Source of the DNA: Isosphaeraceae bacterium
GTDB lineage: Bacteria > Planctomycetota > Planctomycetia > Isosphaerales > Isosphaeraceae
Assembly (NCBI GenBank): GCA_965279195.1
Contig: CBDIHP010000042.1
Coordinates: 172,317 to 236,316, forward strand
Direction: 5' to 3'
Length of the DNA: 64,000 nt
The translations under genes were made by a program, and so were the position numbers. The notes under the pieces were generated by a model. It made no database searches and was not told the origin of the DNA. It worked only from the letters and a program-made list of their open reading frames with translations. Below are positions 1-47,753 of this stretch, in pieces (positions within the stretch are counted from its first letter, which is position 1; each line of letters starts with the position of its first letter).

Positions 1-457
1 TCACGTTCCGCCGGACGAGCTGGACCTTGTCGCCGGCCCGGTGGAACATGACCACCAGCTCGTCGCCGAAGCCGATCGGGGTGCCGGCCGAGCCGAGGCC
101 GCGCGCGATCATCATCGGCACGAGCAGCGGCTGGTCGAACTGCATCGGCTTGATCTCGGCGTAGAGATGTTCATCCTTCTGGTGGAGGGTGAACAGCCCT
201 TCGGTCTTCACGGCGTCCTTGGTGACGTCGTTGAAGTCGCGATACCGCTTGGGATCGTTGGAGGAGGGGGAGCCGCCCCCGCCACCGCCGCCGCCCGAGC
301 GGGCGCGGAGGATCGTCTCGAGGTCGATGTTGGACTGGCCGCCCTGAGCGGGCGGATTCGCCTGCGCGGCGGGCTTGTCTTCGGCCTTCGCGGTCAAGCC
401 GCAGGCGAAGCCGAACGCGACCAGGGCGTTCAGGCTCGTGGCGAACCTGAGTCTCAT
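1..457 (-). CDS. Hypothetical secreted protein, partial (C-terminus lies beyond the window start). It has an N-terminal signal peptide and an unusual run of nine glycines (G9).
   Basis: Reverse-strand translation starting at the ATG whose complement is 455-457 reads MRLRFATSLNALVAFGFACGLTAKAEDKPAAQANPPAQGGQSNIDLETILRARSGGGGGGGGGSPSSNDPKRYRDFNDVTKDAVKTEGLFTLHQKDEHLYAEIKPMQFDQPLLVPMMIARGLGSAGTPIGFGDELVVMFHRAGDKVQLVRRNV. It has a hydrophobic signal-like N-terminus and runs open to position 1. The listed + ORF 41..529 is its antisense shadow. Confidence 0.5.
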   Translation of the reverse strand, partial: MRLRFATSLNALVAFGFACGLTAKAEDKPAAQANPPAQGGQSNIDLETILRARSGGGGGGGGSPSSNDPKRYRDFNDVTKDAVKTEGLFTLHQKDEHLYAEIKPMQFDQPLLVPMMIARGLGSAGTPIGFGDELVVMFHRAGDKVQLVRRNV

Positions 458-678
458 GGAGTCACTCCGGGGTGCGGGTTCTGGGGGCGGTCGCGTGGGA
501 AATCGGGACGTGGCGACGAGGGGCCCTAGGGATTGCTACGCCGCGTCGCGTCAGAGGGTTTGACCTGGCTCTCCGTCTACCCGTTATCGTGAACGATCGA
601 TGTAGGACTGGCAAGGGGAGTCGATTGCGGAATCCTTGCCAGTCGTGGCGATTTTGACGGGCAGATCGGCTGGGGAGG

Positions 679-1709
679 TCAGGTCGCCTTTCTGGATGGG
701 TCGTCATACCAGCGGACCGATCTCTCGATGCTCTCCGCGTATCCGTAGGCCGGCGTCCAGCCGAGTTTCGTCTCCGCCTTCTCCGTCGAGTACGACAGGA
801 ACCGGCCCATCAGCCAGGTGGCGTAGCGGGTGATCAGGGGCGGCCTCGGCTGGCGAGTGAGCCGAGCGGCGGCCTCGATGAGCACGCTCGCGCCGAAGAC
901 CAGCCTGTAGGGGAGTCTCTTTTTGATCGCCGGTGCGCCGGTGGCGGCGATCCAGAGGTTGAGGTAGTCCTGCTGGGTGATGAACCCTTGATGGGTGATG
1001 TTGTACGCCTCGCCCCGGGACCCTCGTGCCCCGCCGCAAGGATGGCCGCGTCGGCGACGTTGGGGGCGTAGATCGCGCTGATGGGGTTGGTCGCCGGGCC
1101 GATCCAGGGGACGGTCCCGGCGCGGAGTTTCGCGATCAGCCGCGCCATCGTGATCCGGTCGCGTTCGCCGTAGAGCCAGCTCGGGCGGATGATCGTGAGC
1201 GGCAGGCCGCGCGTCTCGGCCAGGTCCCAGAGGAGCCGCTCGGATTCGACCTTGCTGATCGTGTAGTAGTCCCAGAACCGCCAGAGGTTCTGGCCGAGCG
1301 GGGCCGTCTCGTCGATCGGCGGGCCGCCCTCCTTCGGGTGGCCGTAGGCGCTCGTGGAGCTGATCTGGACGAACCGCTTCGCTCCGCCGGCGAGGGCGGC
1401 CTCGGCGATGTTCCGGGTGGCGTCGAGGCAGCCGACCTGGAACTCGCCCCAGGTCCCCCAGTCGCCCACCTTGGCGGCGGAGTGGTAGACGAAATCGGCC
1501 CCCTCGGCGGCCCCGCGGCAGGCGGCGGGATCGCTCAGGTCGCCACGGAAGACCTCGACGCCGATCGCGTCGAGGAAGGTCGTCGGGGTGCCGGGCCGGA
1601 CGAGGGCCCGGACGCGATCGCCCCGGGCACGGAGCTTCTCGGCGATGTGGCTGCCCAGCAATCCGGTCGCGCCGGTGACGAGCGAGAGGCCGGGCGGATT
1701 CGCGGTCAT
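679..1709 (-). CDS. NAD-dependent epimerase/dehydratase (SDR family, extended). The reading frame is interrupted by an apparent frameshift near 1020-1035, so this may be a pseudogene or a sequencing error.
   Basis: The N-terminal part (frame of ORF 834..1709) reads MTANPPGLSLVTGATGLLGSHIAEKLRARGDRVRALVRP... with the GxxGxxG Rossmann motif and a YxxxK-like segment (YYTISK). The C-terminal part continues in the frame of ORF 679..1995 (...RGEAYNITHQGFITQQDYLNLW...WYDDPSRKAT). The two frames meet around GGGGCACGAGGGTCCCGGGGCGAGG, a G/C homopolymer context. Confidence 0.6.
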
Positions 1710-1979
1710 GGGATTCGAGGCTCTCGATCAAACATGAGTCGGGGGAAGGAGATCGGTCCGGCCCGGTGCAAGTGTTGCCCGCGATTTGGCGGGTGTCTTG
1801 AAAAATTGTCAAGGAAGGTCGTCGGGGTGTGGGTCCCGTTGCAAGGGAGCGGTCCGTGCGATGCGCGGGCGGCTCGGCGGAGGGTCGTCGGGAACCGGCC
1901 CGATCGCCCGGTCCCCGAACGGTCAACGCGACTCCCTCGGTTCCCAACGGTCGCCGGCCCCCAACCCGACGAGACCACC

Positions 1980-4046
1980 ATGGCGGAAGAAACACTCGAT
2001 CCCGGTCTGCTCGAGCAGACGAAGAATCAGATCCGTAAGCTGGTGGCCGAGATCGCCGAGCTGGCCGAGTCGGACATCCAGCCGGCGGACTTCTACGTCG
2101 AGTTCCTGAACCGCTCGGTCGCGGCCGTGGCGGCGTCGGGCGGCGCGCTCTGGCTCATGGACGGTCGGGGCGGGCTCAAGCTCCAGCATCACCTGGAGTT
2201 CCAGCTCACCGGCCTGATGAACGGCCAGATCCGCACCGCGCCCCACGACGCCCTGCTGGGCTGCATGATCCAGGCCTCGCAGGCGACGATCATCCCGCCG
2301 GGCGCCACGGTCGAGGGGGTCCCCAACGCCGGCAACCCGACCCCGTTCACGCTCATCATCGCCCCCCTGACCGTCGACAAGCAAGTCGTCGGCCTGGTCG
2401 AGATCCTGATGGATCCGAACCGCCGGGCGGCCACGCAGAAGAGCACGCTCCGGTTCGTGAGCGACCTCTGCGACCTCGCCGGTTCGTACCTCAAGAACCG
2501 CCAGATGCGGCAGATGATGTCGCAGCAGCGGCTCTGGAACCAGCTCGAAGGGTTCACGCACTCGATCCACGGCTCCTTGCACCTCAAGGACACCTGCTTC
2601 GCGGTCGTCAACGACGGCAAGCGCCTGGTCGCCTGCGATCGGTTCAGCGTCGCCTTGAAGATCGGCGGCCGGACGATGGTCGAGGCCGTCAGCGGCCAGG
2701 AAGTCGTCGAGCAGCGGGCGAACCTGATCCGCGAGCTGACCAAGCTCTCCAAGGCGGTCATCCGCTCGGGCGAGGACCTGGTCTACACCGGCAACACCGA
2801 GGGCTTCGCCCCCGACATCCGCGACTCCCTCGAAGCGTACGTCGACGAGTCGGGCTCCAAGGCCGTCATCATGACGATCTTGCACAAGCCCGAGCCCGAT
2901 CAGAGCAAGGAGAAGGTGCCGTTCGGCGTGGTCATCGCCGAGCAGATCGGCGACGAACTCGCCCCGACCGACGCCCATGCCCGCTGCGAGGTCGTCGCGA
3001 GGCACGCCTCGACCGCCCTCTGGAACGCCTCCGAGCACGACAAGACGTTCCTGCCGATCCTCAAGATGATCGGCTCCCCCTGGCGGTTCTTCCGGGGCCG
3101 GACCCTGGCGAAGATCCTCGCCGTGGTCGCCCTGCTCGTCGGCGTGATCCTGATCCTCACCTTCGTGCCCTGGGAACTCCGGATCGAAGGCAGGGGCTCG
3201 CTGCTGCCCGAGCAGCGCCGGATGACCTACGCCCCGCTCGCGGGCAAGGTCATCGAGGTGCCCGTCGATCACGGCGACATCGTCCAGGCGGGCCAGGTCC
3301 TCGCGGTGATCAAGAGCGAGGAGCTGGAGAAGGAATACCTCCGGCTCACCGAGGCCCGCAACGAGGCGAACAGCAAGAAGACCTACCTCCACATCCAGGC
3401 CGAGGCGGCCCGCAAGCGCTCCAGCGAGGAGTACAACACGATCTCCGGCCAGGAGCGCGAGGCCGACATCCAGGAGAAGGGGGCGATCGAGCAGCTCAAG
3501 ATCATCGACGAGCAGCTCAAGCAGCTCGAGATCCGCGCCCCACACAAGGGCAAGATCACGACCTGGGAGCCCAGGAAGAACCTGATCGGCCGCCCGGTGG
3601 AGATCGGCCAGGAGCTGCTCCAGATCGCCGAACTCGAAGGCGAGTGGGTGATGGAGGTCGACGTCCCCGACGACGACATGGGCCCGGTCCTCGAAGCCCG
3701 CCGCAGGCTGGACGAGGACATCAAGGCCGGCAAGAAGCCGCCCGGCTCGGCCCTGAGCGCCTACTTCGTCACGGCCACCGACCCCGAGCACCGCTACACG
3801 GGCTATGTCCGCCGGATCTCCTCGAAGGCCGAGACCGTCGAGGGCAAGCACGTGGTGAAGGTGACGGTCGGGTTCTCGGAGGACATCCGCAAGGACTTCA
3901 TGACCCGGAATCAGGCCCTCCGCCCGGGTGCGGGCGTCTCGGCCCGGATCGACTGCGGCCAGGCCCGGCTCGCCTACGTCCTCTTCCGCGACGTGATCCA
4001 CGTCTTCTACGAGAGCGTCCTCTTCCGCTGGCCGTTCCTCCGTTGA
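1980..4046 (+). CDS. Membrane fusion protein (HlyD family) with N-terminal cytoplasmic tandem GAF-like domains, a single TM helix and a periplasmic biotin-lipoyl-like/coiled-coil/beta-barrel adaptor domain.
   Basis: The ATG at 1980 is in frame with ORF 1026..4046; the upstream part of that ORF is antisense to the epimerase gene and I treat it as non-coding. The protein is MAEETLDPGLLEQTKNQIRKLVAEIAELAE...; two GAF-like blocks lie before residue ~380. The TM helix is ILAVVALLVGVILILTFV. The lipoyl-like hairpin is LAGKVIEVPVDHGDIVQAGQVLAVIKSEEL, followed by a long coiled coil (EKEYLRLTEARNEA...QLKQLEIRAPHKGKI), typical of HlyD/EmrA adaptors. Confidence 0.75.
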   Translation: MAEETLDPGLLEQTKNQIRKLVAEIAELAESDIQPADFYVEFLNRSVAAVAASGGALWLMDGRGGLKLQHHLEFQLTGLMNGQIRTAPHDALLGCMIQASQATIIPPGATVEGVPNAGNPTPFTLIIAPLTVDKQVVGLVEILMDPNRRAATQKSTLRFVSDLCDLAGSYLKNRQMRQMMSQQRLWNQLEGFTHSIHGSLHLKDTCFAVVNDGKRLVACDRFSVALKIGGRTMVEAVSGQEVVEQRANLIRELTKLSKAVIRSGEDLVYTGNTEGFAPDIRDSLEAYVDESGSKAVIMTILHKPEPDQSKEKVPFGVVIAEQIGDELAPTDAHARCEVVARHASTALWNASEHDKTFLPILKMIGSPWRFFRGRTLAKILAVVALLVGVILILTFVPWELRIEGRGSLLPEQRRMTYAPLAGKVIEVPVDHGDIVQAGQVLAVIKSEELEKEYLRLTEARNEANSKKTYLHIQAEAARKRSSEEYNTISGQEREADIQEKGAIEQLKIIDEQLKQLEIRAPHKGKITTWEPRKNLIGRPVEIGQELLQIAELEGEWVMEVDVPDDDMGPVLEARRRLDEDIKAGKKPPGSALSAYFVTATDPEHRYTGYVRRISSKAETVEGKHVVKVTVGFSEDIRKDFMTRNQALRPGAGVSARIDCGQARLAYVLFRDVIHVFYESVLFRWPFLR

Positions 4047-4180
4047 TCGGCCAGCGGTCCTCCCTGTCCGAATCCCACCGGTCCCCGCGCGGGCGGGGCC
4101 CGGATGATCCCCTACACTCTCTTCCGATCGGGTCGAACGGTCACCGCCGACGTACACCCCCACGATCCTGGAGTCCGGTC

Positions 4181-5194
4181 ATGAGCACGTCCTTCTCCAA
4201 GAAAACCGGCGCGATCGCCCTGGGCCTCTCCGCCATGCTGGGCGCGGCCACGCTCGCGCAAGACCCGGCCGGCCGCCCGGCTGCCCCCGCCCGCGCCGCC
4301 AACGATCAGAACATCCTGACGGTCGACGACGGCAAGGTGGACTGGATCTACAAGTCCGACGTCTCCGCCCTCCGCGAGGGCGTGCTCGACAAGATGGAGA
4401 TCACGATCGGCAAGGAGGTCCGACGGGGCGGGTCGATCGGCCAGTTGCACAAGACGCTGGCCGAGCTGGCCGTCGCCAAGGCGAAGGTCGCGGCCGACGG
4501 CAAGGCGGCCAAGGCCAAGGCCGAGGCCCAGCAGGAGCTGGCGTTCGCCGTCGTCGCCCGCAACGAACGACTCAGGAAGAAGGATCCCAACCTCGTCTCC
4601 GCCGAGGAGATGAACAAGGCTGAGGCCGAGTTGAAGGTTGCCGTGGCCCTGATCATTGAGGCCCAGGAGAACCAGGCCCTCGCCCGCGCGGAGCTGGCCA
4701 TCGCCCAGCAGTCGCTCGACGAGCACTTCATCAAGGCCCCGTTCGACGGCGTGGTGATCGAGGAACTCAAGCGGCCGGGCGAGAGCGTCCGAGCCAATGA
4801 GCCGGTCGTCCGCGTGGGGAACCTGGACAAGCTCCGCGTCTTCGCCTTCATCCCGCTCGATTACGTCAGCCGGATCGGCGAGGAGACGACCGTCGAGTTC
4901 CAGCCCCGCGTGACCGGCGTTCGCGGCGGGACGATGGAGATCGAGCAGAAGCGGTTCGTGGGCAAGATCACGTTCGTGGACCCGCAGATCCAGCCGATCA
5001 GCGAGACGGCCATCCGCATCTACGCCGACTTCGAGAACCCGACCAAGGAATTGAAGCCGGGCATGCAGGGCTCGCTGACGATCCGGCTGAACCCGGCGAA
5101 GCCGGCCGCCGCGGGCCTGGTCCAGCCGCAGCCCGCCCCGGGCGTCGGCCCCGCCGCCGCCGCCTCGGCCGAGCTGCCGCCGCTGCCCCGCTGA
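4181..5194 (+). CDS. HlyD/efflux-adaptor family periplasmic protein (membrane fusion protein paralog) with a signal peptide.
   Basis: The ATG at 4181 is in frame with ORF 3644..5194. MSTSFSKKTGAIALGLSAMLGAATLAQDPA is a signal peptide. The lipoyl-like motif FIKAPFDGVVIEELKRPGESVRANEPVVRVGNLDKLRVFAFIP and the coiled coil AELKVAVALIIEAQENQALARAELAIAQQSL are characteristic of membrane fusion proteins. Confidence 0.7.
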   Translation: MSTSFSKKTGAIALGLSAMLGAATLAQDPAGRPAAPARAANDQNILTVDDGKVDWIYKSDVSALREGVLDKMEITIGKEVRRGGSIGQLHKTLAELAVAKAKVAADGKAAKAKAEAQQELAFAVVARNERLRKKDPNLVSAEEMNKAEAELKVAVALIIEAQENQALARAELAIAQQSLDEHFIKAPFDGVVIEELKRPGESVRANEPVVRVGNLDKLRVFAFIPLDYVSRIGEETTVEFQPRVTGVRGGTMEIEQKRFVGKITFVDPQIQPISETAIRIYADFENPTKELKPGMQGSLTIRLNPAKPAAAGLVQPQPAPGVGPAAAASAELPPLPR

Positions 5195-5301
5195 GAAGCT
5201 CGCCGCAGCCCGCCGTCTTGGCCCTTGCCGTCTAGCTGGAATCGACTGAACGACGCCCCGTCCACGCACCCTACCGGGACGCAAGCCAGGAGCGACTCCG
5301 C

Positions 5302-7497
5302 ATGAGCGCCGCCCCGACGATGGCCCCCTCGGCGCCGGCCGGACAGGCCGCCGAGCACCTCTGCGTGCGGCTGCGGCCGGACCTGATCGTCCAGCCGCAG
5401 TTCTACGAGGGGATGACCCACTACGTCATCAAGGACCCGATCGCGCTCAAGTACTTCCGCTTCAAGGTGGAAGAGTACTTCCTGCTCCAGCAGTTCGACG
5501 GCAAGAACAACCTCCAGGACGTCAAGCGGGCCTTCGAGAAGAAGTACCGCCCGCAGACCATCTCGGTCGACGACCTCATCCGCTTCGCCGCCCAGCTCCA
5601 CGAGGCGGGCATCGCCCTGGTCGACACCCCCGACCAGGGGCAGGCGCTCATCCGGCGCCGCAAGAAGAACCAGTGGAAGAAGGTCTGGCAGTTCTTCGCC
5701 AACATCCTGTACATCAAGATCCCGATCATCGATCCGGAACGCTTGCTGAGCTGGATGTACCCCTACTTCCGCTGGATCTACTCCTCCTGGTTCATGACCT
5801 TCAGCGTCGGGCTCATGGTCTCGGCCCTGATGCTGGTCATCAGCCAGTGGGCGACCTTCAGCAGCCGATTGCCCGACTTCCAGAGCTTCTTCAACTGGCA
5901 CACCATCTTCTACTTCTGGTGTAGCCTGGCGGTCGTGAAGGTGATCCACGAGTTCGGGCACGGGCTCACCGCCAAGCACTTCGGCGGCGAGGTCCACGAG
6001 ATGGGGGCGCTGCTGCTCGTCCTCACGCCCGCGCTCTATTGCGACGTCACCGACAGCTGGCTCCTGCCCAACAAATGGAAACGCATCTGGATCTCGGCGG
6101 CCGGCATCTATGTCGAATGCTTGCTGGCGTCGATCGCGACCTTCGTCTGGTGGAACACCGAGCAAGGGCTGCTCAATAGCTTGTGCCTGGCGACCATGTT
6201 CATCTGCTCGGTGAACACGATCCTCTTCAACGCAAACCCCCTGCTCCGCTACGACGGCTATTACGTCATGTCGGACTTCCTGGAGGTTCCGAACCTCCGG
6301 ATCAAGAGCACCCAGTTCTTCACCTACCTGTTCCAGGAGAAGGTGCTCGGGCTGGAGTTGCCGGTCCAGAGCTACATGCCCCGCTCGCGCCGGTTGCTGT
6401 TCGTGACGTACGCCGTCGCCAGCTACCTTTACCGCTGGATCGTGTCCTTCAGCATCATCTGGTTCCTTTATCAGTTCCTCAAGCCGTACAAGCTCGGGTC
6501 GCTGAGCGCGATCCTGGCGGTCGGCTCGCTCGTGCCGCTGATCGTGATGCCCGTCTATCAGATGATCAAGTTCGTCCGCACTCCTGGGAGGATGCGCAAA
6601 GTGAAGAAGCTTCGCACGGCCGCCTTCTTTGCGGTCTTGATCACCGCCGCGACGGCCATCCTGCTGATCCCGACCCCGCTCCGCGTGCAGGGGACGCTAG
6701 TGCTCACGGCGGAGAGGCCCGCCACCGTCTACGCCGAGGTCCCGGGCCTCCTGGAGACCATGGACGTCCGCGACGGCGACGTCGTCAAGGAAGGCCAGAT
6801 CCTCGCGACCCTGAGCAATCCCGAGAAGATCCGCGAGCGGATCCAGCGCACCGACGAGCAGGCGGCGAACTTCGCCAAGGCCAGCTACTTCGCGCAGAAT
6901 TCCGACCTCAACAGCCGCGCCCAGTACAAGGTCCACCTGAAGATCCAGGAGGAGCTTGAAGAGGTCATCAAGAAGGTCGTCGAGCAGATCGGCAAGCTGA
7001 CGCTGGTCGCCCCGCGCGACGGCGTGGTGATGGGGGTCCCCCAGCGCGAGACGCTGGGTCAGCACCTCAAGCCGGGCAAGGTCTTCTGCGAGGTCGCCGA
7101 CCCGACCAGGCTCGAAGCCCACATGATCCTCGACCAGTCGGACATCGACCTCGTCCGCTCGAAGAAGGACCAGCGGGCGACGGCCTGGATCAAGGTCTAC
7201 GGCACCTCCGAGACGACTTGGAAGAGCTACGTCTCCGAGATCGCGCTCCGCAACCGCGAGGAGATCCCGCCCGAGCTGTCGCACATGGCCGGCGGCGAGA
7301 TCGCGACCAAGCAGGACCAGAAGACCGGCCAGGTCAAGCCGCTGACCCCGATGTACGAGGTCATCATCCCTGTGGACAACTCCGAGCTGCGGCTCCAGCC
7401 GAGTCTGCGCGGGTTCGCCAAGATCGACTGCGGTCACTGCACCCTCGCCTGGTGGCTCTGGCGGCTCGTGGCCAAGACCTTCCACTTCTCGCTCTGA
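5302..7497 (+). CDS. Peptidase M50 (site-2 protease-like intramembrane zinc metalloprotease) fused to a C-terminal HlyD/membrane-fusion-protein-like periplasmic domain.
   Basis: The HExxH zinc motif HEFGHGL sits in a TM segment, followed by the M50 signature NANPLLRYDGYYV (N-x2-P-x4-DG). Multiple TM helices are present. After a further TM helix (AAFFAVLITAATAILLIP) come a lipoyl-like hairpin TAERPATVYAEVPGLLETMDVRDGDVVKEGQILATLSNPE, a coiled coil and LVAPRDGVVMGVP, as in HlyD adaptors. An AGGAG-like RBS lies about 9 nt upstream of the ATG at 5302. Confidence 0.8.
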   Translation: MSAAPTMAPSAPAGQAAEHLCVRLRPDLIVQPQFYEGMTHYVIKDPIALKYFRFKVEEYFLLQQFDGKNNLQDVKRAFEKKYRPQTISVDDLIRFAAQLHEAGIALVDTPDQGQALIRRRKKNQWKKVWQFFANILYIKIPIIDPERLLSWMYPYFRWIYSSWFMTFSVGLMVSALMLVISQWATFSSRLPDFQSFFNWHTIFYFWCSLAVVKVIHEFGHGLTAKHFGGEVHEMGALLLVLTPALYCDVTDSWLLPNKWKRIWISAAGIYVECLLASIATFVWWNTEQGLLNSLCLATMFICSVNTILFNANPLLRYDGYYVMSDFLEVPNLRIKSTQFFTYLFQEKVLGLELPVQSYMPRSRRLLFVTYAVASYLYRWIVSFSIIWFLYQFLKPYKLGSLSAILAVGSLVPLIVMPVYQMIKFVRTPGRMRKVKKLRTAAFFAVLITAATAILLIPTPLRVQGTLVLTAERPATVYAEVPGLLETMDVRDGDVVKEGQILATLSNPEKIRERIQRTDEQAANFAKASYFAQNSDLNSRAQYKVHLKIQEELEEVIKKVVEQIGKLTLVAPRDGVVMGVPQRETLGQHLKPGKVFCEVADPTRLEAHMILDQSDIDLVRSKKDQRATAWIKVYGTSETTWKSYVSEIALRNREEIPPELSHMAGGEIATKQDQKTGQVKPLTPMYEVIIPVDNSELRLQPSLRGFAKIDCGHCTLAWWLWRLVAKTFHFSL

Positions 7498-7529
7498 CCC
7501 GTCCGAGCTTCCTCGAACCTGGAAATCGC

Positions 7530-7575
7530 GACCGGCCGGCCTCGGGGCAACCCAGGGCCGGCCGGTTTCGTTTGG
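7530..7575 (+). terminator. Rho-independent terminator-like hairpin downstream of the M50-HlyD gene.
   Basis: ACCGGCCGGCC-tcggggcaacccag-GGCCGGCCGGT followed by TTCGTTT. Confidence 0.5.
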
Positions 7576-8208
7576 AGGGCGCCCGGGCTCTGCCTCGCCG
7601 GTTCATCTGATCCGCCAGCCCCGCGGTGCGCGAGCCTCCACCCATGATGCGGGAGCGAGAGCCGAAGGGACGCCCGACCGGATCGGAGGCGCTGGGCGAG
7701 CAACTCCCGATGCCGCCCTTGCCCTCGCCCCGCTGACCGACCGAACCAGATCTCCCGATCCGTCGACACGGGACGAATGACGTCGGACCGGGAGATCCGG
7801 TTTCGCGGCCTGTCGCGTCATCCGGTGGAGCGGCATCGGGAGATCCCCGCCCAGCGCACGCGACCGGATCTCGGCGTTTGGCAGGCCATTCGGGAGGTCG
7901 GCATCGGGAGAGGCGTCCCTGCGGTGTCGTCAAGGTGCCCGCGGGTTTCCGTCCTCGGAAACCCGGTCCAGCTGCGTCGCGGAAGAACCGGCCTGGGTGG
8001 ATCTCCCGGAATTTCGAGGCCGAATCCCTCGGGCAGCTCTGGGGCATTGGGCCGGAAACCGGCAGCTTCGCACCCGCACTACGAAGTGGGCTTCGAAAGT
8101 AAACCGGCCGCGACGGCCCTCGAAAGGACCGCCGCGGCCGGCAGGCTAGGAGACTCGGGACGGGGGCGGCCGGTTCGGGGCCGCCCAGGGTTCGCTCGAC
8201 GGGGAGAC

Positions 8209-11200
8209 TCAGCCGTTGCTGGTCTTCTTGGCCGAATTCTGGCTCGCCAGCGACTTCAGGGAGTCCACGATGGACTGCGCGGTGTTGCCGTCGCCGGTCG
8301 TCGTCGTGCTCGCCGTGGTCGTGGTCGTCGGCGTGGTGGTCGTCGGGGTGACGATCACCGGGGTGGTCTTCTTGGCGACCGTGGTCTTCTTCGCGGTCTT
8401 CGTCGCCTTGACCGGGGCGCTGAAGAGCGAGTAGACCGGGCCGTTGGTCGTGTTGGGCTGGAGGCCCTTGTTCACGCCGAAGGAGGCCGGCGTCCGCTTG
8501 GCGTAACCCTGGACCTTGCTCTTCGGCACGAACATGTAGGTCGGCTTCAGATACTTGAGGTCGTTGAAGTTACGCTTGGTGTCGGGTGCCAGGAGGTACC
8601 CGTTCGCGCTGGCCCGCTGGCGGTCGACCACGACGTACTGGTCGGGTTGCGGGAGCAGCTTGGTGGAGAGCATCTTCAGGGAGTCGATCGAGACCGCCCC
8701 GTTGAGGTCGCCGTCGGCCGCGTAGTCGAAGTAGTTGAACCGGCGCTGGAGGGCGTCGGGCTGCTCGGGCGTGTCGCCGGTCAGGCCGGTCGAGGTGAAC
8801 CCGTTCTGGTCGTTGGTCGCCGCCCGGGCGGTGCCGCCCAGGAGCCTCGCCATCGCACCGTCCTCGGGCAGGCCGAGGCGGGCCGAGTCGTCCACGAAGG
8901 TCTGGATCTCCTGCGCGGTGATCAGGCCGTTGTGGTTCGTGTCGATGATGTCGAAGGCGTTGTGGGCGAACAGGTACTGCAGGGCGACGGTGCCCTCGAT
9001 CGACGCGACGGCGTTGCCGACGTCGACCCGGGCGTAGCTGCGGAACTGGGTGCTGTCCCCCTTGAGCCGGAACGGCCCGGACTGGCTCTGGCCGTCGTTG
9101 ACGTCGGTCGCGGCGACCGCGGTGTACGCCAGGATCCCGTTGATGCCGTCCGGGGTGTTGTACGGCGTCAGGTTGGCGAAGGCGTTGGTGCCGAAGTTCA
9201 GCGTCTTGACGCCGACCGGCTGGGTCAGGTACGCGTCGGCCGTGCTCGCCGTGGTCAGCTGGTTGGTCCAGTATTGCAGGGCGGACGACACGACGGCGTA
9301 GGAGCCGGTGACGATGCCGGCCGAGAGCGAGGTACCGCCCGCGGTGTAGGTCATCGTGAGGCTGGCGTCGCCGACGAATCGGCGTCGGAAGGTCGGCACG
9401 TCGAGGGCCGGGGCCGCGAAGTCGGTCGTGACCGAGCGGTTGGCCGCGCCCAGGACGCGGTCGCTGTAGAAGACGCCGGCCCCGGTGTTGGCGCTCGCAC
9501 CGCCGTTATTGCCGTTGCCACCGCCGTTGCCGCCGCCGGTGGTGGTCCCGCCGCCTTCGGCCGCCGTGAGGGTGCCGAGGGAGTTGGGCTGGACCGAGGC
9601 GTTGGTGGTGCCGGTGTTGCCCGTGGTCGTGGTGGTGCCGCCCGGCGAGCTGGTGCCGCCGAAGACGAGGACCGGGCCCTGGACCCGCGGGATGAGCGTG
9701 TTCGCCGGGTCGGTCGGGATCGAATCCGGCTGCCCGAGGTACGGGAACGGATAGACGCCGGTGACCGAGATCACCTCGTTGAGGATCGCCGGCAGCGACA
9801 TGCCGTTGACGTCGCCGACGTTGGCGCTCTGGTTGCTGTTGGTGAAGCCGGTGTTGCTCGTCCCGGTGCCACCGCCGTTGCCGCCGTTGCCGCCGTTGCC
9901 GCCGCCGCCGGTGTTGAGCGGGGCGCCGAACTGGCCGGCCGCGGCGATCGGGGCGATGCCCAGGTCGCGGAACTTCTTGAACTGGTTCTTGAAGGCGATC
10001 ACGATCTGCGGGTAGCGGCGGAACGCGGTCCCTTCGGAGTCGAAGGTCTCGCTGGTGCCGAACCCGATCGTGGCGGCGATGACGCGGTCGGTCTGGCCCG
10101 GGCGGACCGGGTCGGCGACATACGGATGCGCGGCGGTGTAGGCGAAGCCGTTGTAGACGGCGTTGGTGCTGGTCAGGGTGTTGGTGACGATCGTCGTCGT
10201 GCCGCCGCCGTTCCCGTTCCCGCCGCCGCCGCCGGTCGTGCCGCCAGTGTTGCCCGCGTTGAACGGGTTGAAGGCCGAGACCGGATTCAGGGTGGCCTGC
10301 GGGACGAACTGCGAGACGACGCCGGCGACCAGCGTGCCGTGGCCATCGGCCGTGGTCGGGATCGACGCGCCGCCGGTGGTGCCGTTGTTGCCGTTGTTGC
10401 CGTTGCCGGTCGCGGCCGTGGTGGCGAGGCCGGCGGCGTAGTCGTCGTTGCCTGTGCCGTTGGTCAGGACGTTCTTGCCCGGCGCCACGCGGCCGCGGAA
10501 GCCGGGGGACGTGGCGTCCACGCCGGTGTCGAGGATCGTGACGGCGCTGTTCTGGCCCTCATACGGGACGCCGAGGGTCCGCAGGTCGTTGAGGCCGACG
10601 AGCGAGCCGCTGGTCGAGCCGGCGAGGCTGGCCTGCGTCTTGAACTGCCAGATGCCGTCGTTGTCGGCGGCGTACAGGGTCGTGCCGTCGGCCGAGAAGG
10701 TGATGCTCAGGCTCGACGACGTGAACGAGCTCGAGTCGAACGCGTTCGAGGTGTTGAATCCGGTCGCGAACGGGGTCACGACGCCGGTCGGGCTGATCCG
10801 GACGATACGCCCGCCGAGCGACCCGCTCGAGGCCGAGATGATCTGGTTGCCGGCCGAGTCGAGGGTCGCGCCCGCACCGCCGGGGCCCTGGACCGGGATG
10901 ACCGTCACCTGACCGGTGGTGGTGCCCGGGGTCGGGACGGTGGTCGCCAGGCCGCTCGCCAGGTCGCTCACGAACAGGCTGCCGACATACTGCACCGCAC
11001 CATACGTGAAGTTGGTGGTGGTGCCGGTGGTGCCGGTGGTCGTCGTGCTGGCCGAGGTCACGACCACGCCGTTCGAGAAGTAGCCGTACTTGTCGAACGC
11101 GGTGTCCTGGAAGCGGCGCAGGTTGGTGTCGGCGACCGTGAAGCCATCGACGCTGCCGCCGGTCCCGAGCGTGAAACCCGTCGGCTGGGTGCCGGTGCTG

Positions 11201-12297
11201 GCGACCGTCGAGGTGGTGCCGGTGCCGATCAGGAGGCCGCCGCCGAGGCCCTGGACCCCGGAGAACCCGGCCGTCTGCGGGAACGGGTTGCCGGAATCGG
11301 GCGGGAAGGCCGGGACGCCGAAGTCGGTGAAGGCCGAGTAGACCTGCGACACGTAGTCGGTGTTCGTGCTGGTCGAGGCCAGGCCGACCTGGGGTCCGAG
11401 CGTCAGCGCGGTGTTCTTGACGCCCGGGGGGAGCGTCGGCGTGCTGATGTTCTGGCCGGGCTTGTACTGGTTGGCGTCGAAGAACAGGGCGGCGAACTGG
11501 GTGTTCGACGTCGTGTTCTGGACGGTGCTCGAACCCGTGCCCGTGCCCGAGATCAGCCCGCGGAGGAACGACTGCTGCTCGGCCGGCGGCACGAGGATCG
11601 CCGACGGATTGATCGAAAGCCGGGTCCCCTTCAGGCTGCTGTCGCTGTAGGTGACGAACGCCCCCAGGAAGGAGCCGTCGGGGCCGATCCGGTAGATCGC
11701 GTTCTTGGTCGGGTCGGTCGAGTCGACCGTCGAGACGAACATCGACGACCGGCCGTCGAAGTAACCTTCGGGGTCGAACGTGACGTCATACCAGTTCACG
11801 AGCCCCGTGCCGGTGCCGGCCGAGTTGGCGGCGCTGGTGGCGCTGGGGTTCAGCTGGGGGATGACGGTGTTGAGGTCGAAGAACACTGACGCCTTGCCGG
11901 TGGCCGGGTCCACGCGGTAGATCACGCCGGGGCGGTTGATGGCCCCGGTGTTGGAGCCCGCACCGCGCGAGACGGCGTAGATGCCCTTGCCGAAGTCGCC
12001 GCCGGGGCCGGCCTCGATCCGGACGATGTCGCCGCCGAACTGGTTGATCGGCGTGAGCTGAGACACCGAGGTGAACGGGGCGGCCGACGCGAACGTCGAG
12101 GTCCCCGTCGTCTGCGTCGTGATGGTGACGTTGCCCACGGAGGGCGTCCCCGCGTTCGCCGTGAATGTGGCGGACGTCGGGAAGGTCGCCAGGACCGGGG
12201 TCAGCACCTCACGGATTTCCAGGTGCTGGACTTCCAGCCGGACTTCGCGCTTCTGCCGCGAGGGGCCTCGCGCCTTGGGTCGGGATGGGTGAGACAT
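8209..12297 (-). CDS. Subtilisin-like serine peptidase (S8 family), 1362 aa. It has long Gly/Thr/Asn-rich low-complexity inserts, C-terminal dockerin/EF-hand-like Ca-binding repeats and a Lys/Thr-rich tail.
   Basis: Catalytic triad motifs: ILDTGVD (Asp), HGTLVAGVVS (His), GGTSLSAGIVTG (Ser). Dockerin-like repeats: DTNHNGLITAQEIQTFVDD and DYAADGDLNGAVSIDSLKML. C-terminal tail: KTAKKTTVAKKTTPVIVTPTTTTPTTTTTASTTTTG. Confidence 0.8.
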   Translation of the reverse strand: MSHPSRPKARGPSRQKREVRLEVQHLEIREVLTPVLATFPTSATFTANAGTPSVGNVTITTQTTGTSTFASAAPFTSVSQLTPINQFGGDIVRIEAGPGGDFGKGIYAVSRGAGSNTGAINRPGVIYRVDPATGKASVFFDLNTVIPQLNPSATSAANSAGTGTGLVNWYDVTFDPEGYFDGRSSMFVSTVDSTDPTKNAIYRIGPDGSFLGAFVTYSDSSLKGTRLSINPSAILVPPAEQQSFLRGLISGTGTGSSTVQNTTSNTQFAALFFDANQYKPGQNISTPTLPPGVKNTALTLGPQVGLASTSTNTDYVSQVYSAFTDFGVPAFPPDSGNPFPQTAGFSGVQGLGGGLLIGTGTTSTVASTGTQPTGFTLGTGGSVDGFTVADTNLRRFQDTAFDKYGYFSNGVVVTSASTTTTGTTGTTTNFTYGAVQYVGSLFVSDLASGLATTVPTPGTTTGQVTVIPVQGPGGAGATLDSAGNQIISASSGSLGGRIVRISPTGVVTPFATGFNTSNAFDSSSFTSSSLSITFSADGTTLYAADNDGIWQFKTQASLAGSTSGSLVGLNDLRTLGVPYEGQNSAVTILDTGVDATSPGFRGRVAPGKNVLTNGTGNDDYAAGLATTAATGNGNNGNNGTTGGASIPTTADGHGTLVAGVVSQFVPQATLNPVSAFNPFNAGNTGGTTGGGGGNGNGGGTTTIVTNTLTSTNAVYNGFAYTAAHPYVADPVRPGQTDRVIAATIGFGTSETFDSEGTAFRRYPQIVIAFKNQFKKFRDLGIAPIAAAGQFGAPLNTGGGGNGGNGGNGGGTGTSNTGFTNSNQSANVGDVNGMSLPAILNEVISVTGVYPFPYLGQPDSIPTDPANTLIPRVQGPVLVFGGTSSPGGTTTTTGNTGTTNASVQPNSLGTLTAAEGGGTTTGGGNGGGNGNNGGASANTGAGVFYSDRVLGAANRSVTTDFAAPALDVPTFRRRFVGDASLTMTYTAGGTSLSAGIVTGSYAVVSSALQYWTNQLTTASTADAYLTQPVGVKTLNFGTNAFANLTPYNTPDGINGILAYTAVAATDVNDGQSQSGPFRLKGDSTQFRSYARVDVGNAVASIEGTVALQYLFAHNAFDIIDTNHNGLITAQEIQTFVDDSARLGLPEDGAMARLLGGTARAATNDQNGFTSTGLTGDTPEQPDALQRRFNYFDYAADGDLNGAVSIDSLKMLSTKLLPQPDQYVVVDRQRASANGYLLAPDTKRNFNDLKYLKPTYMFVPKSKVQGYAKRTPASFGVNKGLQPNTTNGPVYSLFSAPVKATKTAKKTTVAKKTTPVIVTPTTTTPTTTTTASTTTTGDGNTAQSIVDSLKSLASQNSAKKTSNG

Positions 12298-12707
12298 TCC
12301 ATTCTCTCCTTAGCCTGAACTCGTCCGTCCTGAACCGAGGCCGAGGTGCGTGCCCGGCATACCCAGGTATCGGCGCGACCGGCGCTCGCATATGAGTCGA
12401 ACCGTGTTCCAACCCGCACGACCGCTACCGATCGCACGACGCGGGAACCATCTCTTCTGGTTTCATCGGCACAATTGGCACGGAAAGATGATCGAAAGGT
12501 ACGGAAAGTGTGGTCGTGCGGGAGGGATGCATCTTGACGAAGGCAACGGGGCTGCCGATTCGTCCCCGCCCGCCCGAGCGGAATCCCTGCAGGGACACGA
12601 CTTGCGGAACCCCTGCGCCGCCGTCAAACTAGGGAACCATGCCCCGGCGCCCGTGACCGCCGGCCGCCCCAGTCCACAACGACGACGCCAACCGCAGGCT
12701 GAACACG

Positions 12708-12986
12708 ATGGAAATCCCTCAGATCCGCCCGGGCCTGGTCAAGGACGTCCCCTCCACCCGCCGCGTCGTCGCCTTCTTCTATAACTCCGCGCAGGGCAAC
12801 GCGATGATCCAGCTCCTCACCGCGCTGGGCGTGCCCAACAACGAACTCGGCGTCACCCCGCCCGAGCGGATCGAGGGCGGACAGGGCATGATCCTCTCGA
12901 TCCCCTGCCCGACCGACTCCCTGGTCGCCCAGGTCGAGAAGCTCTGCCGCGCCCAGGGCGCGGAAGTCCATCGCCAGAAGGCCTGA
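12708..12986 (+). CDS. Small hypothetical protein (92 aa).
   Basis: ORF with genome-typical GC3-rich codon usage: MEIPQIRPGLVKDVPSTRRVVAFFYNSAQGNAMIQLLTALGVPNNELGVTPPERIEGGQGMILSIPCPTDSLVAQVEKLCRAQGAEVHRQKA. I recognise no family. Confidence 0.45.
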   Translation: MEIPQIRPGLVKDVPSTRRVVAFFYNSAQGNAMIQLLTALGVPNNELGVTPPERIEGGQGMILSIPCPTDSLVAQVEKLCRAQGAEVHRQKA

Positions 12987-13125
12987 GCCCCGCCGACCGA
13001 CTGGGCCCTGGCCCCGCCGACGCCTGCCCGATACGATTCAACCCTTGTTGAACCGCCGGGCGTCGCGCGATCTCGCCGCCGCCCGACTCGCCGGATCCGG
13101 ACCCCAATCGCCTGGGAAATCGCCG

Positions 13126-37749: not shown

Positions 37750-40700
37750 ATGTCCACCTCCCCCAGCGACCGGATCCCCATCGACGACCTCGCCGAGGCC
37801 TTCCTCGCCAGGCGACGCGCGGGCGAGCCGGTCACGCCCGAGGAGTTCGCCGCCTCGAACCCCGACCTCGCCGAGGAGATCCTCGCCCTCTTCCCCGCGC
37901 TCGTGATGATGGAGGAACTCGGCAACGACTCGGGCGACCGCACGGCGACGGTCGCGGGGTCGTCGGGGAGCCTGCCGGCGGGCTTGCCGGTTCAGCGGCT
38001 GGGGGAATACCGCCTGCTGCGCGAGGTCGGACGCGGCGGGATGGGGATCGTCTACGAGGCCGAGCAGGAGAGCCTCGGGCGGCGCGTGGCGCTCAAGGTC
38101 TTGCCCGCCGGCGCCCTGGCCGACCCCAAGCAGGTCCGGCGGTTCACCCGCGAGGCGCGATCCGCCGCCAAGCTGCACCACACCAACATTGTCCCCGTGT
38201 TCGGCGTCGGCGAGTGCGACGGCACCCATTTTTATGTGATGCAATTCATCCAGGGCCAGGGGCTCGATTCGGTCCTCGACGAGCTGAAGCGGCTCCGCGG
38301 CCTGCGGGGCAACGGCGCCCGGACCCAGACCCGGCGCGAGGCCGGCGAGATCGCGCTCTCGCTCGCGTCCGGGCGGTTCGTCGATGCCGAGGCCCCCACC
38401 GTCCCCTCGGGCGGGCTCTCGGCGATCCGGTCGGGCAACATGTCGGGCTCGGCCACGGACGTCTCGACGCTCACCGAGACCGACCGCCGTTTCGCCCAGG
38501 GGGTCGCGAAGCTCGGCGTCCAGGTGGCCGACGCCCTGGCCCACGCCCACGGGCAGGGGATCCTGCACCGCGATATCAAGCCCTCGAACCTCCTGCTCGA
38601 TCGCGAGGGGAACGTCTGGGTCGCCGACTTCGGCCTGGCGAAGGCCGTCGGGGCGGACGACCTGACGCACACCGGCGACATCATCGGCACCGTCCGCTAC
38701 ATGGCCCCCGAGCGGTTCCGGGGCGAGGCCGATGCCCGTTCGGATGTCTATGCCCTCGGGCTCACTCTCTATGAGCTCCTGGCCCTCCGCCCGGCGTTCG
38801 ACGAGGGCGACCGCGCCAGCCTGATCCGTCAGGTCACCCAGGAGACGCCGCCGAGGCTCCGACGCATCAATCGCGCGGTGCCGCTCGACCTCGAGACCAT
38901 CATCCACAAGGCGATGGCCCGCGAGCCCGAGGGGCGTTACCGCTCGTCGCAGGACCTCGCCGAGGACCTCAAGCGGTTCCTCGACGGGCGGCCGATTCTT
39001 GCGCGCCGGGTGTCGACCGGGGAGCGGCTCTACCGCTGGAGTCGTCGCAACCCCGCGTTGGCCGCCGCGATGGGGGCGGTCGCCCTGCTCCTGGTCGCCA
39101 CGACCATCGCCGCCGTGATCGGCATGGGATTTTACCGGCACCAGGCCGAGATGGCGGACCTGGCCCGCCGCGAGTCGGACCTGCTGCGCGGCGAGGCCGA
39201 GCGTTCCCGCCGCGAGGCCGATACCCGCCGCGTCGAAGCCGAGGCCGAGCGGCAGCGGGCCGAGTCGAACCTGGCGGAGTCTCGCGAGAACCTCGCCCTG
39301 GCCCGCAAGGCGGTGGACGACTCGTTCACGAAGATCAGCGAGAGCAGCCTGCTCAACGTCCCTGGCCTGCGGCCGCTCCGGAAGGAACTCCTCGAATCGT
39401 CGCTGGGGTTCTATGAAGAGTTCTCCAAGCGTGCTCGGGGGACCGACCCGACCGTCGTCGCCGACCTCGCCGGCGCGCGGTACCGCGTCGGACGAATCCA
39501 GTCGGAGTTGGGGGTCCTGATCGAAGCCAGGGCCAATTATCAGGAATCTCTGGCCCTTTTCGAGCGGGCCCTCGGGGCGAAGGCCGCCGCGCCGTCAGCT
39601 CTCCGCGAACTCGGCGAGGTCTGGCACCGGCTCGGGGACCTGGACGCGTTGAATGGCCGCACCGGCCCGGCCCTCCCGGCGTACCTTCACGCCGTCTCGA
39701 TCCGCGAACGCCTGGCCCGGTCCGGCCCCCGATCGTCGCGGGATCGCCTCGACCTGTCCAGGTCGCTCAACGGGGTCGCGATCTCGACGGCCGACCGCGA
39801 ACAGCAACGCGATGCCTATCGGAGGTCTCTCGCTCTCCGCCTGGAGACGGCGAAAGATCTCACCGACGACCCCGATCTGCTCCACGGCCTGAGCGAGTCG
39901 TTCCTCAATTGCAGTGTGATCATCCGGGACGCAGGCTATGGCGAGGAGGCGCTGGAACTCGCCAGGCGGGGTCTGGACTACGGCCACGCCGGCCTCGCCC
40001 GACGGCCGCACGACATCGAATTCACGATGGACCTCGGGGGGCTCTACGGCCAGATCGCCGGCTACTGCTGGAACCTCGGGCGGGAGCGCGAGGCGCTCGA
40101 GCTCTCGGCGGAAGGGATCGGATTCGAGGTCGACGCGGTGGCGAAGAATCCGGAAGTCCCCGGATTCCGGTCGTACCTGGCGGATGTCCTGATCAAACGC
40201 CTGAATTTCCTCCGACCCCGGAGGCAGGCGGCGCCCGAGGCGGATCCGACCCGCCGGGCGGATCTCCTCGCGATCTTCGAGACGATCGTCTGGCTCCATG
40301 AGTCCGCGCCCCAGCCCACGAAGGACGGCCTGGCGCTGGCGGCGGCGGCGCACCTCCACCGGGCGGTCCTGCTCGCCGGAGTCGGGGCGCCTGCCTCGCC
40401 CGATGCCTGGTCGACGGAAGCGAAGGAGGAGAGGGTTCTCGGCTTCGTGGACCTGGATCGGGCCAAATCCAGGGGCATGTCGGAGGCCGAATTCGCCAGG
40501 GCGTATCCCGAACTCCGGGACCTCCTGGAGGGCACCCGACCCGAGAAAAAACGGTCGGGCGGTCGCGTGCCCGGGCCACCCACGTCGTGGCCGGTGCCCA
40601 GGAAAAGCGGCACCTCGCCCCTGGCGATTCCCGGCCGATTCGAGGAGGACCGCTCCTGCGCCGAACTCGTGATCGCGATCCTGCACCGCCTCGGCCGGGA

Positions 40701-47644: not shown

Positions 47645-47716
<72 letters not shown>

Positions 47717-47753
47717 CTCGACAACTCCTGATTTCCCCAGTAGATACGAAAAG

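What the first reader, a model, noticed from the sequence alone, without database searches (positions are those of the whole stretch)
1980..4046. GAF-GAF-TM-HlyD: a membrane fusion protein with cytoplasmic small-molecule sensor domains
MFPs normally have only a short cytoplasmic tail. Here ~370 cytoplasmic residues with GAF-like blocks precede the TM helix ILAVVALLVGVILILTFV. This would allow ligand (for example cyclic nucleotide) control of the periplasmic assembly. The true start is the ATG at 1980; the upstream part of ORF 1026-4046 is antisense shadow of the epimerase gene.
Basis: partly seen in the sequence, partly recalled or inferred. Interest (0 to 1): 0.6.

Follow-up and report, generated by a model that had tools for sequence, protein, structure and literature searches.

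The report
Membrane fusion protein with two GAF domains
The gene is real and does encode a periplasmic "membrane fusion" adaptor with two cytoplasmic GAF sensor-type domains. It belongs to a large family first described in 2015, whose function is still untested, and it sits in an operon with a protease-adaptor fusion, so it is not a new kind of protein.

Summary

A cytoplasmic sensory or regulatory input is plausible. The suggested cyclic-nucleotide ligand is not supported, because the NKFDE motif is absent in 0 of 78 family members. No pump gene is linked either.

The gene is the first of a conserved three-gene operon:
- GAF-GAF-TM-HlyD
- a secreted HlyD-like protein (4181-5194)
- a PqqD-like/M50 intramembrane metalloprotease/TM-HlyD fusion (5302-7497)

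The TM-HlyD-tail module of the third protein is paralogous to that of the GAF protein.

The N-terminal module is widespread (2054 clusters at 50% identity). Kamneva et al. 2015 (PMC4452313) described proteins of this architecture, with the same partners, next to secondary SecA_DEAD genes; no such gene is in this window. Identity with their family is inferred from architecture and partners, not tested by sequence. No experimental study was found.

Best reading: a regulatory subunit of an M50/HlyD envelope complex, possibly for peptide processing and export. Verdict: new member of a known, uncharacterised kind; moderate interest.

The parts
1980..4046 (+). Gene for the 688-aa GAF-GAF-TM-HlyD protein (stop codon included)
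   Evidence: GC3 is 0.95. Homologues are mostly 685-700 aa. M1 is aligned in 99% of 78 family members.
1710..1979 (.). Divergent intergenic region between the epimerase gene (-) and the operon (+). It is not coding, although it lies inside ORF 1026-4046.
   Evidence: flat codon-position GC (0.66/0.64/0.71); no sigma-70 consensus match.
2082..2411 (+). GAF1 core (aa 35-144)
2427..2570 (+). Long connecting helix (aa 150-197) between the two GAF domains, as in tandem-GAF proteins
   Evidence: AF2 H150-197, pLDDT above 95.
2583..3047 (+). GAF2 (aa 202-356), ending in a long C-terminal helix that leads to the membrane
3048..3113 (+). Juxtamembrane linker with the conserved motif FLxPLWRxLG (aa 357-365) and a basic cluster
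   Evidence: Conservation. Lowest confidence in the model, with pLDDT below 50 at 365-372.
3114..3167 (+). Single transmembrane helix (aa 379-396), N-in
   Evidence: Hydropathy peak 3.0 and positive-inside flanks. AF2 H375-395.
3168..3968 (+). Periplasmic adaptor (HlyD/MFP) module: lipoyl, alpha-hairpin (aa 447-514, nt 3318-3521) and beta-barrel
3969..4043 (+). C-terminal amphipathic helix that follows the nearly invariant C659-G660. The same tail is shared with the M50-HlyD protein.
4181..5194 (+). Second gene: 337-aa secreted HlyD/RND_mfp-like protein. It has a signal peptide and no lipobox Cys.
   Evidence: TIGR01730 98.3 bits against cut-off 94.9. Conserved downstream in 28 of 30 loci.
5302..7497 (+). 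Third gene: 731-aa fusion. It has a PqqD-like domain (aa about 35-105), an M50-type intramembrane metalloprotease (HEFGH aa 216-220, nt 5947-5961; NANPLLRYDG aa 310-319, nt 6229-6258), and a TM-HlyD-tail module (aa 431-731, nt 6592-7494).
   Evidence: Peptidase_M50 35.1 bits; daptide_HExxH 172.7 bits, below cut-off 300. (motifs; 25% identity, E 5e-14, end-to-end with aa 371-688 of the GAF protein). (PqqD in 11 of 13 orthologues). Conserved in 27 of 30 loci.

Best explanation
The gene encodes the cytoplasm-facing regulatory subunit of a three-protein envelope complex. The complex is built from HlyD-type periplasmic adaptor domains around an M50 intramembrane zinc protease.

Shown:
- The protein is GAF1, helix, GAF2, TM, adaptor (lipoyl/hairpin/barrel), then an amphipathic tail.
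- It is co-transcribed, judging by order and spacing, with a secreted adaptor-like protein and with a PqqD-like/M50/TM-adaptor fusion.
- The TM-adaptor-tail module of that fusion is a paralogue of its own.
- The trio is conserved from Isosphaeraceae to Pirellulales/Thermoguttaceae, with no linked ABC, RND or MFS pump or TolC.

Inferred:
- The two paralogous TM-adaptor modules and the soluble adaptor co-assemble into a periplasmic ring or tube.
- The M50 subunit binds a peptide through its PqqD-like recognition domain and cleaves it in the membrane plane.
- The adaptor ring conducts or hands over the product.
- The tandem GAF module binds a cytoplasmic small molecule. It probably dimerises along the connecting helix, as in PDE2A and CyaB2. 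The ligand is not a cyclic nucleotide of the NKFDE type.
- The signal passes through the GAF2 C-terminal helix, the conserved FLxPLWRxLG linker and the TM helix, and switches assembly or protease access on or off.
For: - Architecture and topology.
- The GAF module is conserved as strongly as or more strongly than the adaptor part (mean column identity 0.47-0.53 against 0.44). Invariant polar residues are R221 and E321, with D220, S238, G239 and R246 nearly invariant, and E141 at the matching strand of GAF1. This points to a specific function and not a passive spacer.
- Architecture is fixed across 2054 50%-identity clusters. Nearly all full-length members are 660-720 aa, with the module at residues 1-380.
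- Operon conservation: 27-28 of 30 loci carry the same three genes in the same order and no other conserved neighbour. Singulisphaera acidiphila has the same operon.
- Paralogy of the TM-HlyD-tail modules: 25% identity, E 5e-14, end to end.
- Intact protease motifs HExxH and NxxPxxxxDG.
- Near full-length similarity of the M50 part to the RiPP-maturation protease models daptide_HExxH (E 1.3e-50) and YydH/LiaK (E 1.3e-13).
- PqqD-like domain in 11 of 13 orthologues.
- The literature reached the same qualitative view, 'regulatory and sensory role' (PMC4452313).
Against: - No ligand can be named, and no GAF pocket geometry was examined.
- No conserved small ORF (candidate peptide substrate) lies next to the operon in 30 loci.
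- The PqqD match is weak. The best E is 5e-5 among orthologues, the window's own copy does not reach it, and the PDB profile hit to PqqD has E 0.18.
- The M50 part scores below the curated cut-offs of both RiPP protease models.
- No energy source is linked here. Proteins of this architecture in other phyla sit next to a SecA_DEAD ATPase gene, but none is in this window.
- Hetero-oligomerisation is inferred from paralogy and synteny only.
Confidence: 0.55

Rival explanations
1. The GAF pair is not a small-molecule sensor. It is a cytoplasmic scaffold that oligomerises the adaptor and/or docks the substrate or a partner ATPase, an enlarged version of the role of the roughly 60-aa cytoplasmic domain of HlyD in type I secretion.
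For: - Many GAF domains have no known ligand (general knowledge).
- The NKFDE motif is absent.
- Cytoplasmic domains of type I secretion and ABC adaptors are needed for substrate recognition and assembly (PMC8277102).
- The long inter-GAF helix is a typical dimer interface.
- Proteins of this architecture in other phyla are encoded next to a SecA_DEAD ATPase that would need a docking site.
Against: Invariant buried-type polar residues (R221, E321; D220, S238, R246) and a matching invariant Glu in GAF1 suggest a specific binding site more than a simple interface. No SecA_DEAD gene is in this window or in 29 related loci.
Confidence: 0.25
2. The complex is a regulated-intramembrane-proteolysis signalling device and not an exporter. 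The M50 protease cleaves a membrane-anchored regulator such as an anti-sigma factor. The HlyD-like periplasmic domains act as envelope sensors or inhibitors. The GAF pair plays the metabolic-gate role that the CBS domain plays in SpoIVFB.
For: - Intact S2P-type motifs HExxH and NxxPxxxxDG.
- No transporter, ATPase or outer-membrane channel is linked.
- The hairpin tip is variable, with no conserved RLS-type docking motif.
- In Singulisphaera an ECF sigma factor gene and a vWA-domain gene lie immediately upstream.
Against: - The sigma and vWA genes are absent from the window and are not conserved in other loci.
- The M50 part is closest to RiPP-maturation proteases, not to RseP or SpoIVFB, and carries a PqqD-like peptide-recognition domain.
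- Three separate adaptor-type proteins would be an elaborate design for a simple sensor.
Confidence: 0.15
3. One reading: a classical efflux or type I secretion adaptor whose periplasmic assembly with an unlinked ABC/RND/MFS pump is controlled by cAMP or cGMP binding to the GAF domains.
Against: - The NKFDE motif is absent in 0 of 78 members.
- Scores are far below the curated cut-offs of RND_mfp (47.4 against 94.9) and type_I_hlyD (39.9 against 208.65).
- The conserved partners are HlyD2 and M50-HlyD, and no pump gene is conserved nearby.
- Sequence identity to the PDE GAFs is only 9%.
Confidence: 0.05

Closest known systems
GAF/HlyD/biotin-lipoyl proteins of the 'secondary SecA_DEAD' conserved locus (Kamneva, Poudel & Ward 2015, PLoS One, PMC4452313; for example Rhodopirellula baltica RB144, Methylobacterium extorquens META1p2402)
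   Same: Same domain composition (GAF + HlyD + biotin-lipoyl). Same partners: an M50-like protein with HlyD domains and a secreted HlyD protein. Also found in Planctomycetes. Function unknown, with a 'regulatory/sensory role' proposed.
   Different: No SecA_DEAD gene is in this 64-kb window or conserved in 29 related planctomycete loci. Gene order here is GAF, HlyD, M50. The distances to SecA_DEAD listed in the paper's S2 table imply M50, GAF, HlyD, SecA_DEAD in R. baltica and GAF, M50, SecA_DEAD, HlyD in Proteobacteria. Orthology with RB144, as opposed to paralogy, was not tested.
Periplasmic adaptor / membrane fusion proteins with an N-terminal TM anchor (HlyD, EmrA, MacA)
   Different: - The cytoplasmic part is about 378 aa with two GAFs, instead of tens of residues.
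- Scores are below all curated NCBIfam subfamily cut-offs.
- No cognate ABC, MFS or RND gene is present.
- The hairpin tip is not conserved.
- There is an extra conserved C-terminal amphipathic helix after a Cys-Gly motif.
Tandem GAF regulatory modules (PDE2A, PDE5A, PDE6, cyanobacterial CyaB2)
   Same: Two GAF folds joined by a long helix, N-terminal to an effector, with an output helix leaving GAF-B.
   Different: - The effector is a TM helix plus a periplasmic adaptor, not an enzyme.
- No NKFDE motif.
- 7-12% sequence identity.
- The two GAFs are not detectably similar to each other in sequence (hhalign probability 1.2%).
RiPP-maturation intramembrane metalloproteases (NCBIfam NF041824 daptide_HExxH; NF058609 YydH/LiaK). 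These relate to the partner protein.
   Same: The M50-HlyD partner matches the daptide protease model over nearly its whole length (aa 45-426 against model positions 22-377 of 379, E 1.3e-50) and has HExxH.
   Different: The score of 172.7 is below the cut-off of 300. The partner is fused to a TM-HlyD module. No precursor peptide or modification enzymes lie nearby.

Membership tests
GAF domain (Pfam clan; PF01590/PF13492/PF13185) | Sequence-profile match above the curated threshold | tested here: met
   GAF1 (aa 41-173 region) scores 23.3 bits on PF01590 against cut-off 22.4, which is marginal. GAF_3 and GAF_2 are below cut-off. PF01590 is precomputed in most homologues. GAF2 has no Pfam hit, but its family profile finds PDB GAF domains (best E 3.4e-4).
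GAF domain (Pfam clan; PF01590/PF13492/PF13185) | GAF fold: antiparallel beta-sheet backed by helices, with N- and C-terminal helices on one face | tested here: met
cNMP-binding GAF subclass (PDE2/5/6, CyaB1/2) | NKFDE signature motif (N-K...F-x3-D-E) | tested here: not met
   A regular-expression search found the motif in 0 of 78 family members and not in the window protein.
Periplasmic adaptor protein / membrane fusion protein (HlyD superfamily) | Lipoyl, alpha-hairpin and beta-barrel domains | tested here: met
Periplasmic adaptor protein / membrane fusion protein (HlyD superfamily) | Genetic linkage to an inner-membrane ABC, RND or MFS transporter | tested here: not met
   None was found in the 22 ORFs of the window that were scanned. 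None is among the conserved neighbours in 30 loci.
Periplasmic adaptor protein / membrane fusion protein (HlyD superfamily) | Conserved hairpin-tip (RLS-type) motif for docking an outer-membrane factor | tested here: inconclusive
   Hairpin-tip columns 474-487 are variable and gapped, and no residue exceeds about 45%. The motif register was not mapped structurally.
NCBIfam TIGR01730 RND_mfp / TIGR01843 type_I_hlyD | Score above the curated cut-off | tested here: not met
   47.4 against 94.9, and 39.9 against 208.65.
Kamneva et al. 2015 conserved locus (GAF-HlyD, M50, HlyD, SecA_DEAD) | GAF + HlyD/biotin-lipoyl protein next to an M50-like protein and a HlyD protein | tested here: met
   compared.
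Kamneva et al. 2015 conserved locus (GAF-HlyD, M50, HlyD, SecA_DEAD) | Adjacent secondary SecA_DEAD-domain protein | tested here: not met
   No SecA_DEAD hit in any scanned ORF of the 64-kb window. No fourth conserved gene in 30 loci. The paper notes that the components can be unlinked in the genome, and that cannot be checked from one window.
Site-2 protease / peptidase M50 (partner protein 5302-7497) | HExxH and NxxPxxxxDG zinc-binding motifs in membrane helices | tested here: met
   HEFGH at aa 216 and NANPLLRYDG at aa 310. Peptidase_M50 35.1 bits against cut-off 27.2.
PqqD-like RiPP recognition element (partner protein, aa about 35-105) | Match to PF05402 or a PqqD structure | tested here: inconclusive
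   11 of 13 orthologues match PF05402 at E up to 10, with best E 5.1e-5. The window copy itself does not match. The PDB profile hit to PqqD 3g2b has E 0.18.

The most novel reading that the evidence does not exclude
The trio is a previously unrecognised type of trans-envelope peptide maturation and export machine. It consists of GAF-GAF-TM-HlyD, a secreted HlyD, and PqqD-like/M50/TM-HlyD. It works without an ABC, RND or MFS transporter. The intramembrane protease is itself the inner-membrane gate, and a tandem-GAF subunit makes the assembly ligand-gated from the cytoplasm.
Probability: 0.2. Interest if true: 0.75.

Novelty: new member of a known kind. Interest (0 to 1): 0.35.

Why it matters
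Periplasmic adaptors are normally treated as passive or substrate-triggered connectors of pumps. Here a large family (over 2000 sequence clusters at 50% identity) carries a well-conserved double GAF module on the cytoplasmic side, and its constant partner is an intramembrane protease fused to the same adaptor module. No experimental work on the system was found.

If the GAF module senses a metabolite and gates proteolysis or export, this would be a new regulatory logic for envelope-spanning machines. It would also give a handle on a conserved, uncharacterised operon of Planctomycetota. Kamneva et al. report proteins of the same architecture and partner set in several other phyla.

For this scan the practical result is smaller. 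The call is correct, but it rediscovers a family already in the literature and in domain databases.

Tried and rejected
- hhalign of the GAF1 against the GAF2 sub-alignment gave no detectable internal duplication (probability 1.2%). The GAF nature of domain 2 therefore had to be shown by structure.
- The search for related loci with the 78-sequence and 31-sequence alignments failed because no stretch was conserved enough. A 10-sequence alignment worked but returned only Planctomycetota, biased towards its first sequence. Spread to other phyla therefore rests on the 2015 paper.
- The afdb50 fold library was unavailable.
- A Pfam scan of all 78 members exceeded the size limit.
- An exact look-up of the window protein's contig found nothing on record.
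- PADLOC defence models gave no hit for any of the three proteins, so a defence-system reading was dropped.
- phmmer of the GAF-HlyD protein and of the M50-HlyD protein against PDB found no close solved relative. The best hit was E 3.5e-5, to the lipoyl region of an RND adaptor.
- The search for a SecA_DEAD, ABC or TolC gene in the window found none.
- The search for a conserved small ORF (precursor peptide) within 2.5 kb of the operon in 30 loci found none.
- No convincing small gene lies in the 710-bp gap 7498-8208, where GC3 is 0.62-0.83.
- No Rfam family matched in 1-13000.
- Literature searches for experimental work on GAF-HlyD or M50-HlyD systems found only the 2015 bioinformatic paper.
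Full report

Yes. ORF 1026-4046(+) is listed mechanically, but only the part from ATG 1980 is coding.
- Codon-position GC is 0.65/0.40/0.95 for 1980-4046, typical of genes in this roughly 68% GC window.
- The same frame over 1026-1709 has GC1 0.95 and GC3 0.67. That is the mirror image of the minus-strand epimerase gene (Pfam Epimerase 116.8 bits).
- Region 1710-1979 is flat, so it looks non-coding.
- Homologues at 70-76% identity over the full length (one at 94%), from Singulisphaera, Tundrisphaera and Isosphaeraceae MAGs, are mostly 685-700 aa, with a few called longer, up to 749 aa.
- In an alignment of 78 representatives at 28-61% identity, 99% start at the aligned Met.

The quoted helix ILAVVALLVGVILILTFV is at aa 379-396. 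It is the only hydrophobic segment. Its N flank carries +4 charge and its C flank a net 0, so the 378 N-terminal residues are cytoplasmic and the C-terminal 290 are periplasmic.

**2. What are the domains?**

- **GAF1.** Pfam places a GAF domain at aa 41-173, just above threshold (PF01590 23.3 against 22.4 bits).
- **Adaptor part.** HlyD_3, HlyD_D23 and Biotin_lipoyl_2 fall at aa 418-617.
- **Full-length model.** pLDDT is 93.5. It shows GAF1 (35-144), a 48-residue helix (150-197), GAF2 (202-356), a low-confidence linker carrying the conserved motif FLxPLWRxLG, the TM helix (375-395), a lipoyl domain, a 2 x 30-residue alpha-hairpin (447-514), a beta-barrel, and a C-terminal amphipathic helix after a nearly invariant Cys-Gly.

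**3. The cyclic-nucleotide suggestion**

The NKFDE motif that marks cNMP-binding GAFs is absent here and in all 78 members. Identity to the PDE GAFs is 9%.

The conserved polar residues are different. R221 and E321 are invariant. N211, C219, D220, S238, G239 and R246 are nearly invariant in GAF2. W58, H89, P107, N119, P120 and E141 are nearly invariant in GAF1.

The GAF region is at least as conserved as the adaptor region (0.47-0.53 against 0.44 mean column identity). This argues for a specific function, but the ligand cannot be named.

**4. Context**

The gene is the first of three co-directional genes separated by 134 and 107 bp.
- **Gene 2 (4181-5194).** It encodes a 337-aa protein with a signal peptide and an RND_mfp-type adaptor domain (TIGR01730 98.3 bits against cut-off 94.9).
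- **Gene 3 (5302-7497).** It encodes a 731-aa fusion.
  - Residues 45-426 match the NCBIfam daptide intramembrane metalloprotease model almost end to end (E 1.3e-50, but 172.7 bits is below the cut-off of 300). They also match Pfam Peptidase_M50 (35.1 bits).
  - Both zinc-site motifs are present: HEFGH at 216 and NANPLLRYDG at 310.
  - Residues 431-731 are a TM-HlyD-tail module that aligns end to end with aa 371-688 of the GAF protein, including the TM helix and the 'IDCG..LA..L.R.V' tail (25% identity, E 5e-14).
  - The cytoplasmic N-terminal domain (aa about 35-105) matches Pfam PqqD, the RiPP recognition element fold, in 11 of 13 orthologues (best E 5.1e-5). The window copy itself does not match, and the PDB profile hit to PqqD is not significant (E 0.18). 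This point is a lead, not a result.

**5. Conservation**

- The 375-aa N-terminal module finds 2054 clusters at 50% identity (447 with E up to 1e-30) among 1.84 billion representatives. Nearly all full-length hits are 660-720 aa, with the module at residues 1-380, so the fusion is fixed.
- A genome scan returned more than 540 confirmed loci. All 80 loci kept are labelled Planctomycetota apart from one MAG labelled Candidatus Nealsonbacteria.
- In 30 loci with enough flank, the only conserved real genes are GAF-HlyD (30), HlyD2 (28) and M50-HlyD (27), in that order. Every other recurrent ORF cluster is a shadow of these.
- Singulisphaera acidiphila has the same operon.
- No ABC, RND or MFS transporter, OEP/TolC or SecA_DEAD protein was found in the 22 window ORFs scanned.
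- No conserved small ORF lies beside the operon.

**6. What is already known**

[quoted passage not shown] It encodes an M50-like protein, a HlyD protein, a 'GAF domain protein that also contains HlyD and biotin_lipoyl domains', and a secondary SecA_DEAD protein.
- They suggested that the GAF protein has 'a regulatory and sensory role' and stated that the biological role is unknown.
- Their S2 table lists, for example, Rhodopirellula RB142/RB144/RB146 and Methylobacterium META1p2399-2402.
- Further literature searches found no experimental follow-up.
- No solved structure is related beyond single domains.

The window's locus differs in lacking SecA_DEAD and in gene order. Whether it is the orthologue or a paralogue of the SecA-linked loci was not tested. 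That it is the same protein family as the paper's rests on shared architecture and partners.

**7. Mechanism**

The best-supported reading has confidence about 0.55 for the general statement. Confidence is lower for each inferred step.

The GAF-GAF-TM-HlyD protein is the cytoplasm-facing regulatory subunit of a hetero-oligomeric adaptor assembly built with its paralogue M50-HlyD and the soluble HlyD2.
- The M50 subunit provides peptide recognition (the PqqD-like domain) and intramembrane cleavage.
- The adaptor ring conducts or releases the product.
- The tandem GAF module senses a cytoplasmic signal and transmits it through the GAF2 output helix, the conserved juxtamembrane motif and the TM helix.

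Shown: domains, topology, paralogy, synteny and motif integrity. Inferred: co-assembly, peptide substrate, ligand binding and direction of signalling.

Rivals:
- The GAF pair is a scaffold or docking platform without a ligand (0.25).
- The complex is a regulated-intramembrane-proteolysis signalling device (0.15).
- It is a cNMP-gated classical pump adaptor (0.05).

**8. Verdict**

It is unsupported on the ligand and wrong on novelty. This is a new member of a known but experimentally uncharacterised family.

Interest is moderate at 0.35. It rises substantially only if the trio proves to be a transporter-independent, ligand-gated peptide maturation and export machine (probability about 0.2).

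Noticed in passing
window 679-1709 (-): The NAD-dependent epimerase gene upstream appears frameshifted near position 1040. The N-terminal 220 or so residues read in the frame of ORF 834-1709. The genuine C-terminal part (…GEAYNITHQGFITQQDYL…WYDDPSRKAT) reads in the frame of ORF 679-1995. GC3 switches frame accordingly. The Singulisphaera epimerase-family gene near the same operon (not aligned to this one) is an uninterrupted 344 aa. This is either a sequencing or assembly error or a pseudogene.
   Followed up: partly
window 5389-5631 (aa about 30-110 of the M50-HlyD protein): The cytoplasmic N-terminal domain of the M50-HlyD fusion looks like a PqqD-type RiPP recognition element. PF05402 matches in 11 of 13 orthologues, with best E 5e-5. 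The PDB PqqD hit has E 0.18. If real, it points to a peptide substrate for the whole operon.
   Followed up: partly
window 47645-54948: tRNA-Gly(CCC) at 47645-47717 is followed directly by a tyrosine integrase gene (47810-49003, -), a Prim-Pol primase gene (50059-51396, +) and a 1140-aa ORF with no Pfam match (51526-54948, -). This is probably an integrated mobile element at the tRNA gene.
   Followed up: no
window 8209-12297 (-): A 1362-aa Thr/Gly/Asn-rich protein with no Pfam hit at E up to 1e-4, convergent with the operon. An 18-bp GC-rich hairpin at 8103-8142 lies just downstream of its stop and looks like a terminator. The 710-bp gap 7498-8208 has no convincing gene and no Rfam hit.
   Followed up: partly
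protein P0217 (1615 aa, ENA metagenome): One representative hit is 1615 aa and matches the double-GAF module in three separate stretches, the best at residues 386-700. It may be a duplicated or fused variant of the family.
   Followed up: no
L081 4335-7546 (Singulisphaera acidiphila): In Singulisphaera an ECF-type sigma-70 gene (179 aa) and an 886-aa vWA-domain gene are inserted between the epimerase gene and the GAF-HlyD operon, on the opposite strand to the operon. They are absent from the window. This may be relevant to the proteolytic-signalling rival.
   Followed up: no
window 37750-44010 (+): A 2086-aa Ser/Thr protein kinase with long TPR arrays. This is typical of planctomycetes and unrelated to the finding.
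   Followed up: no
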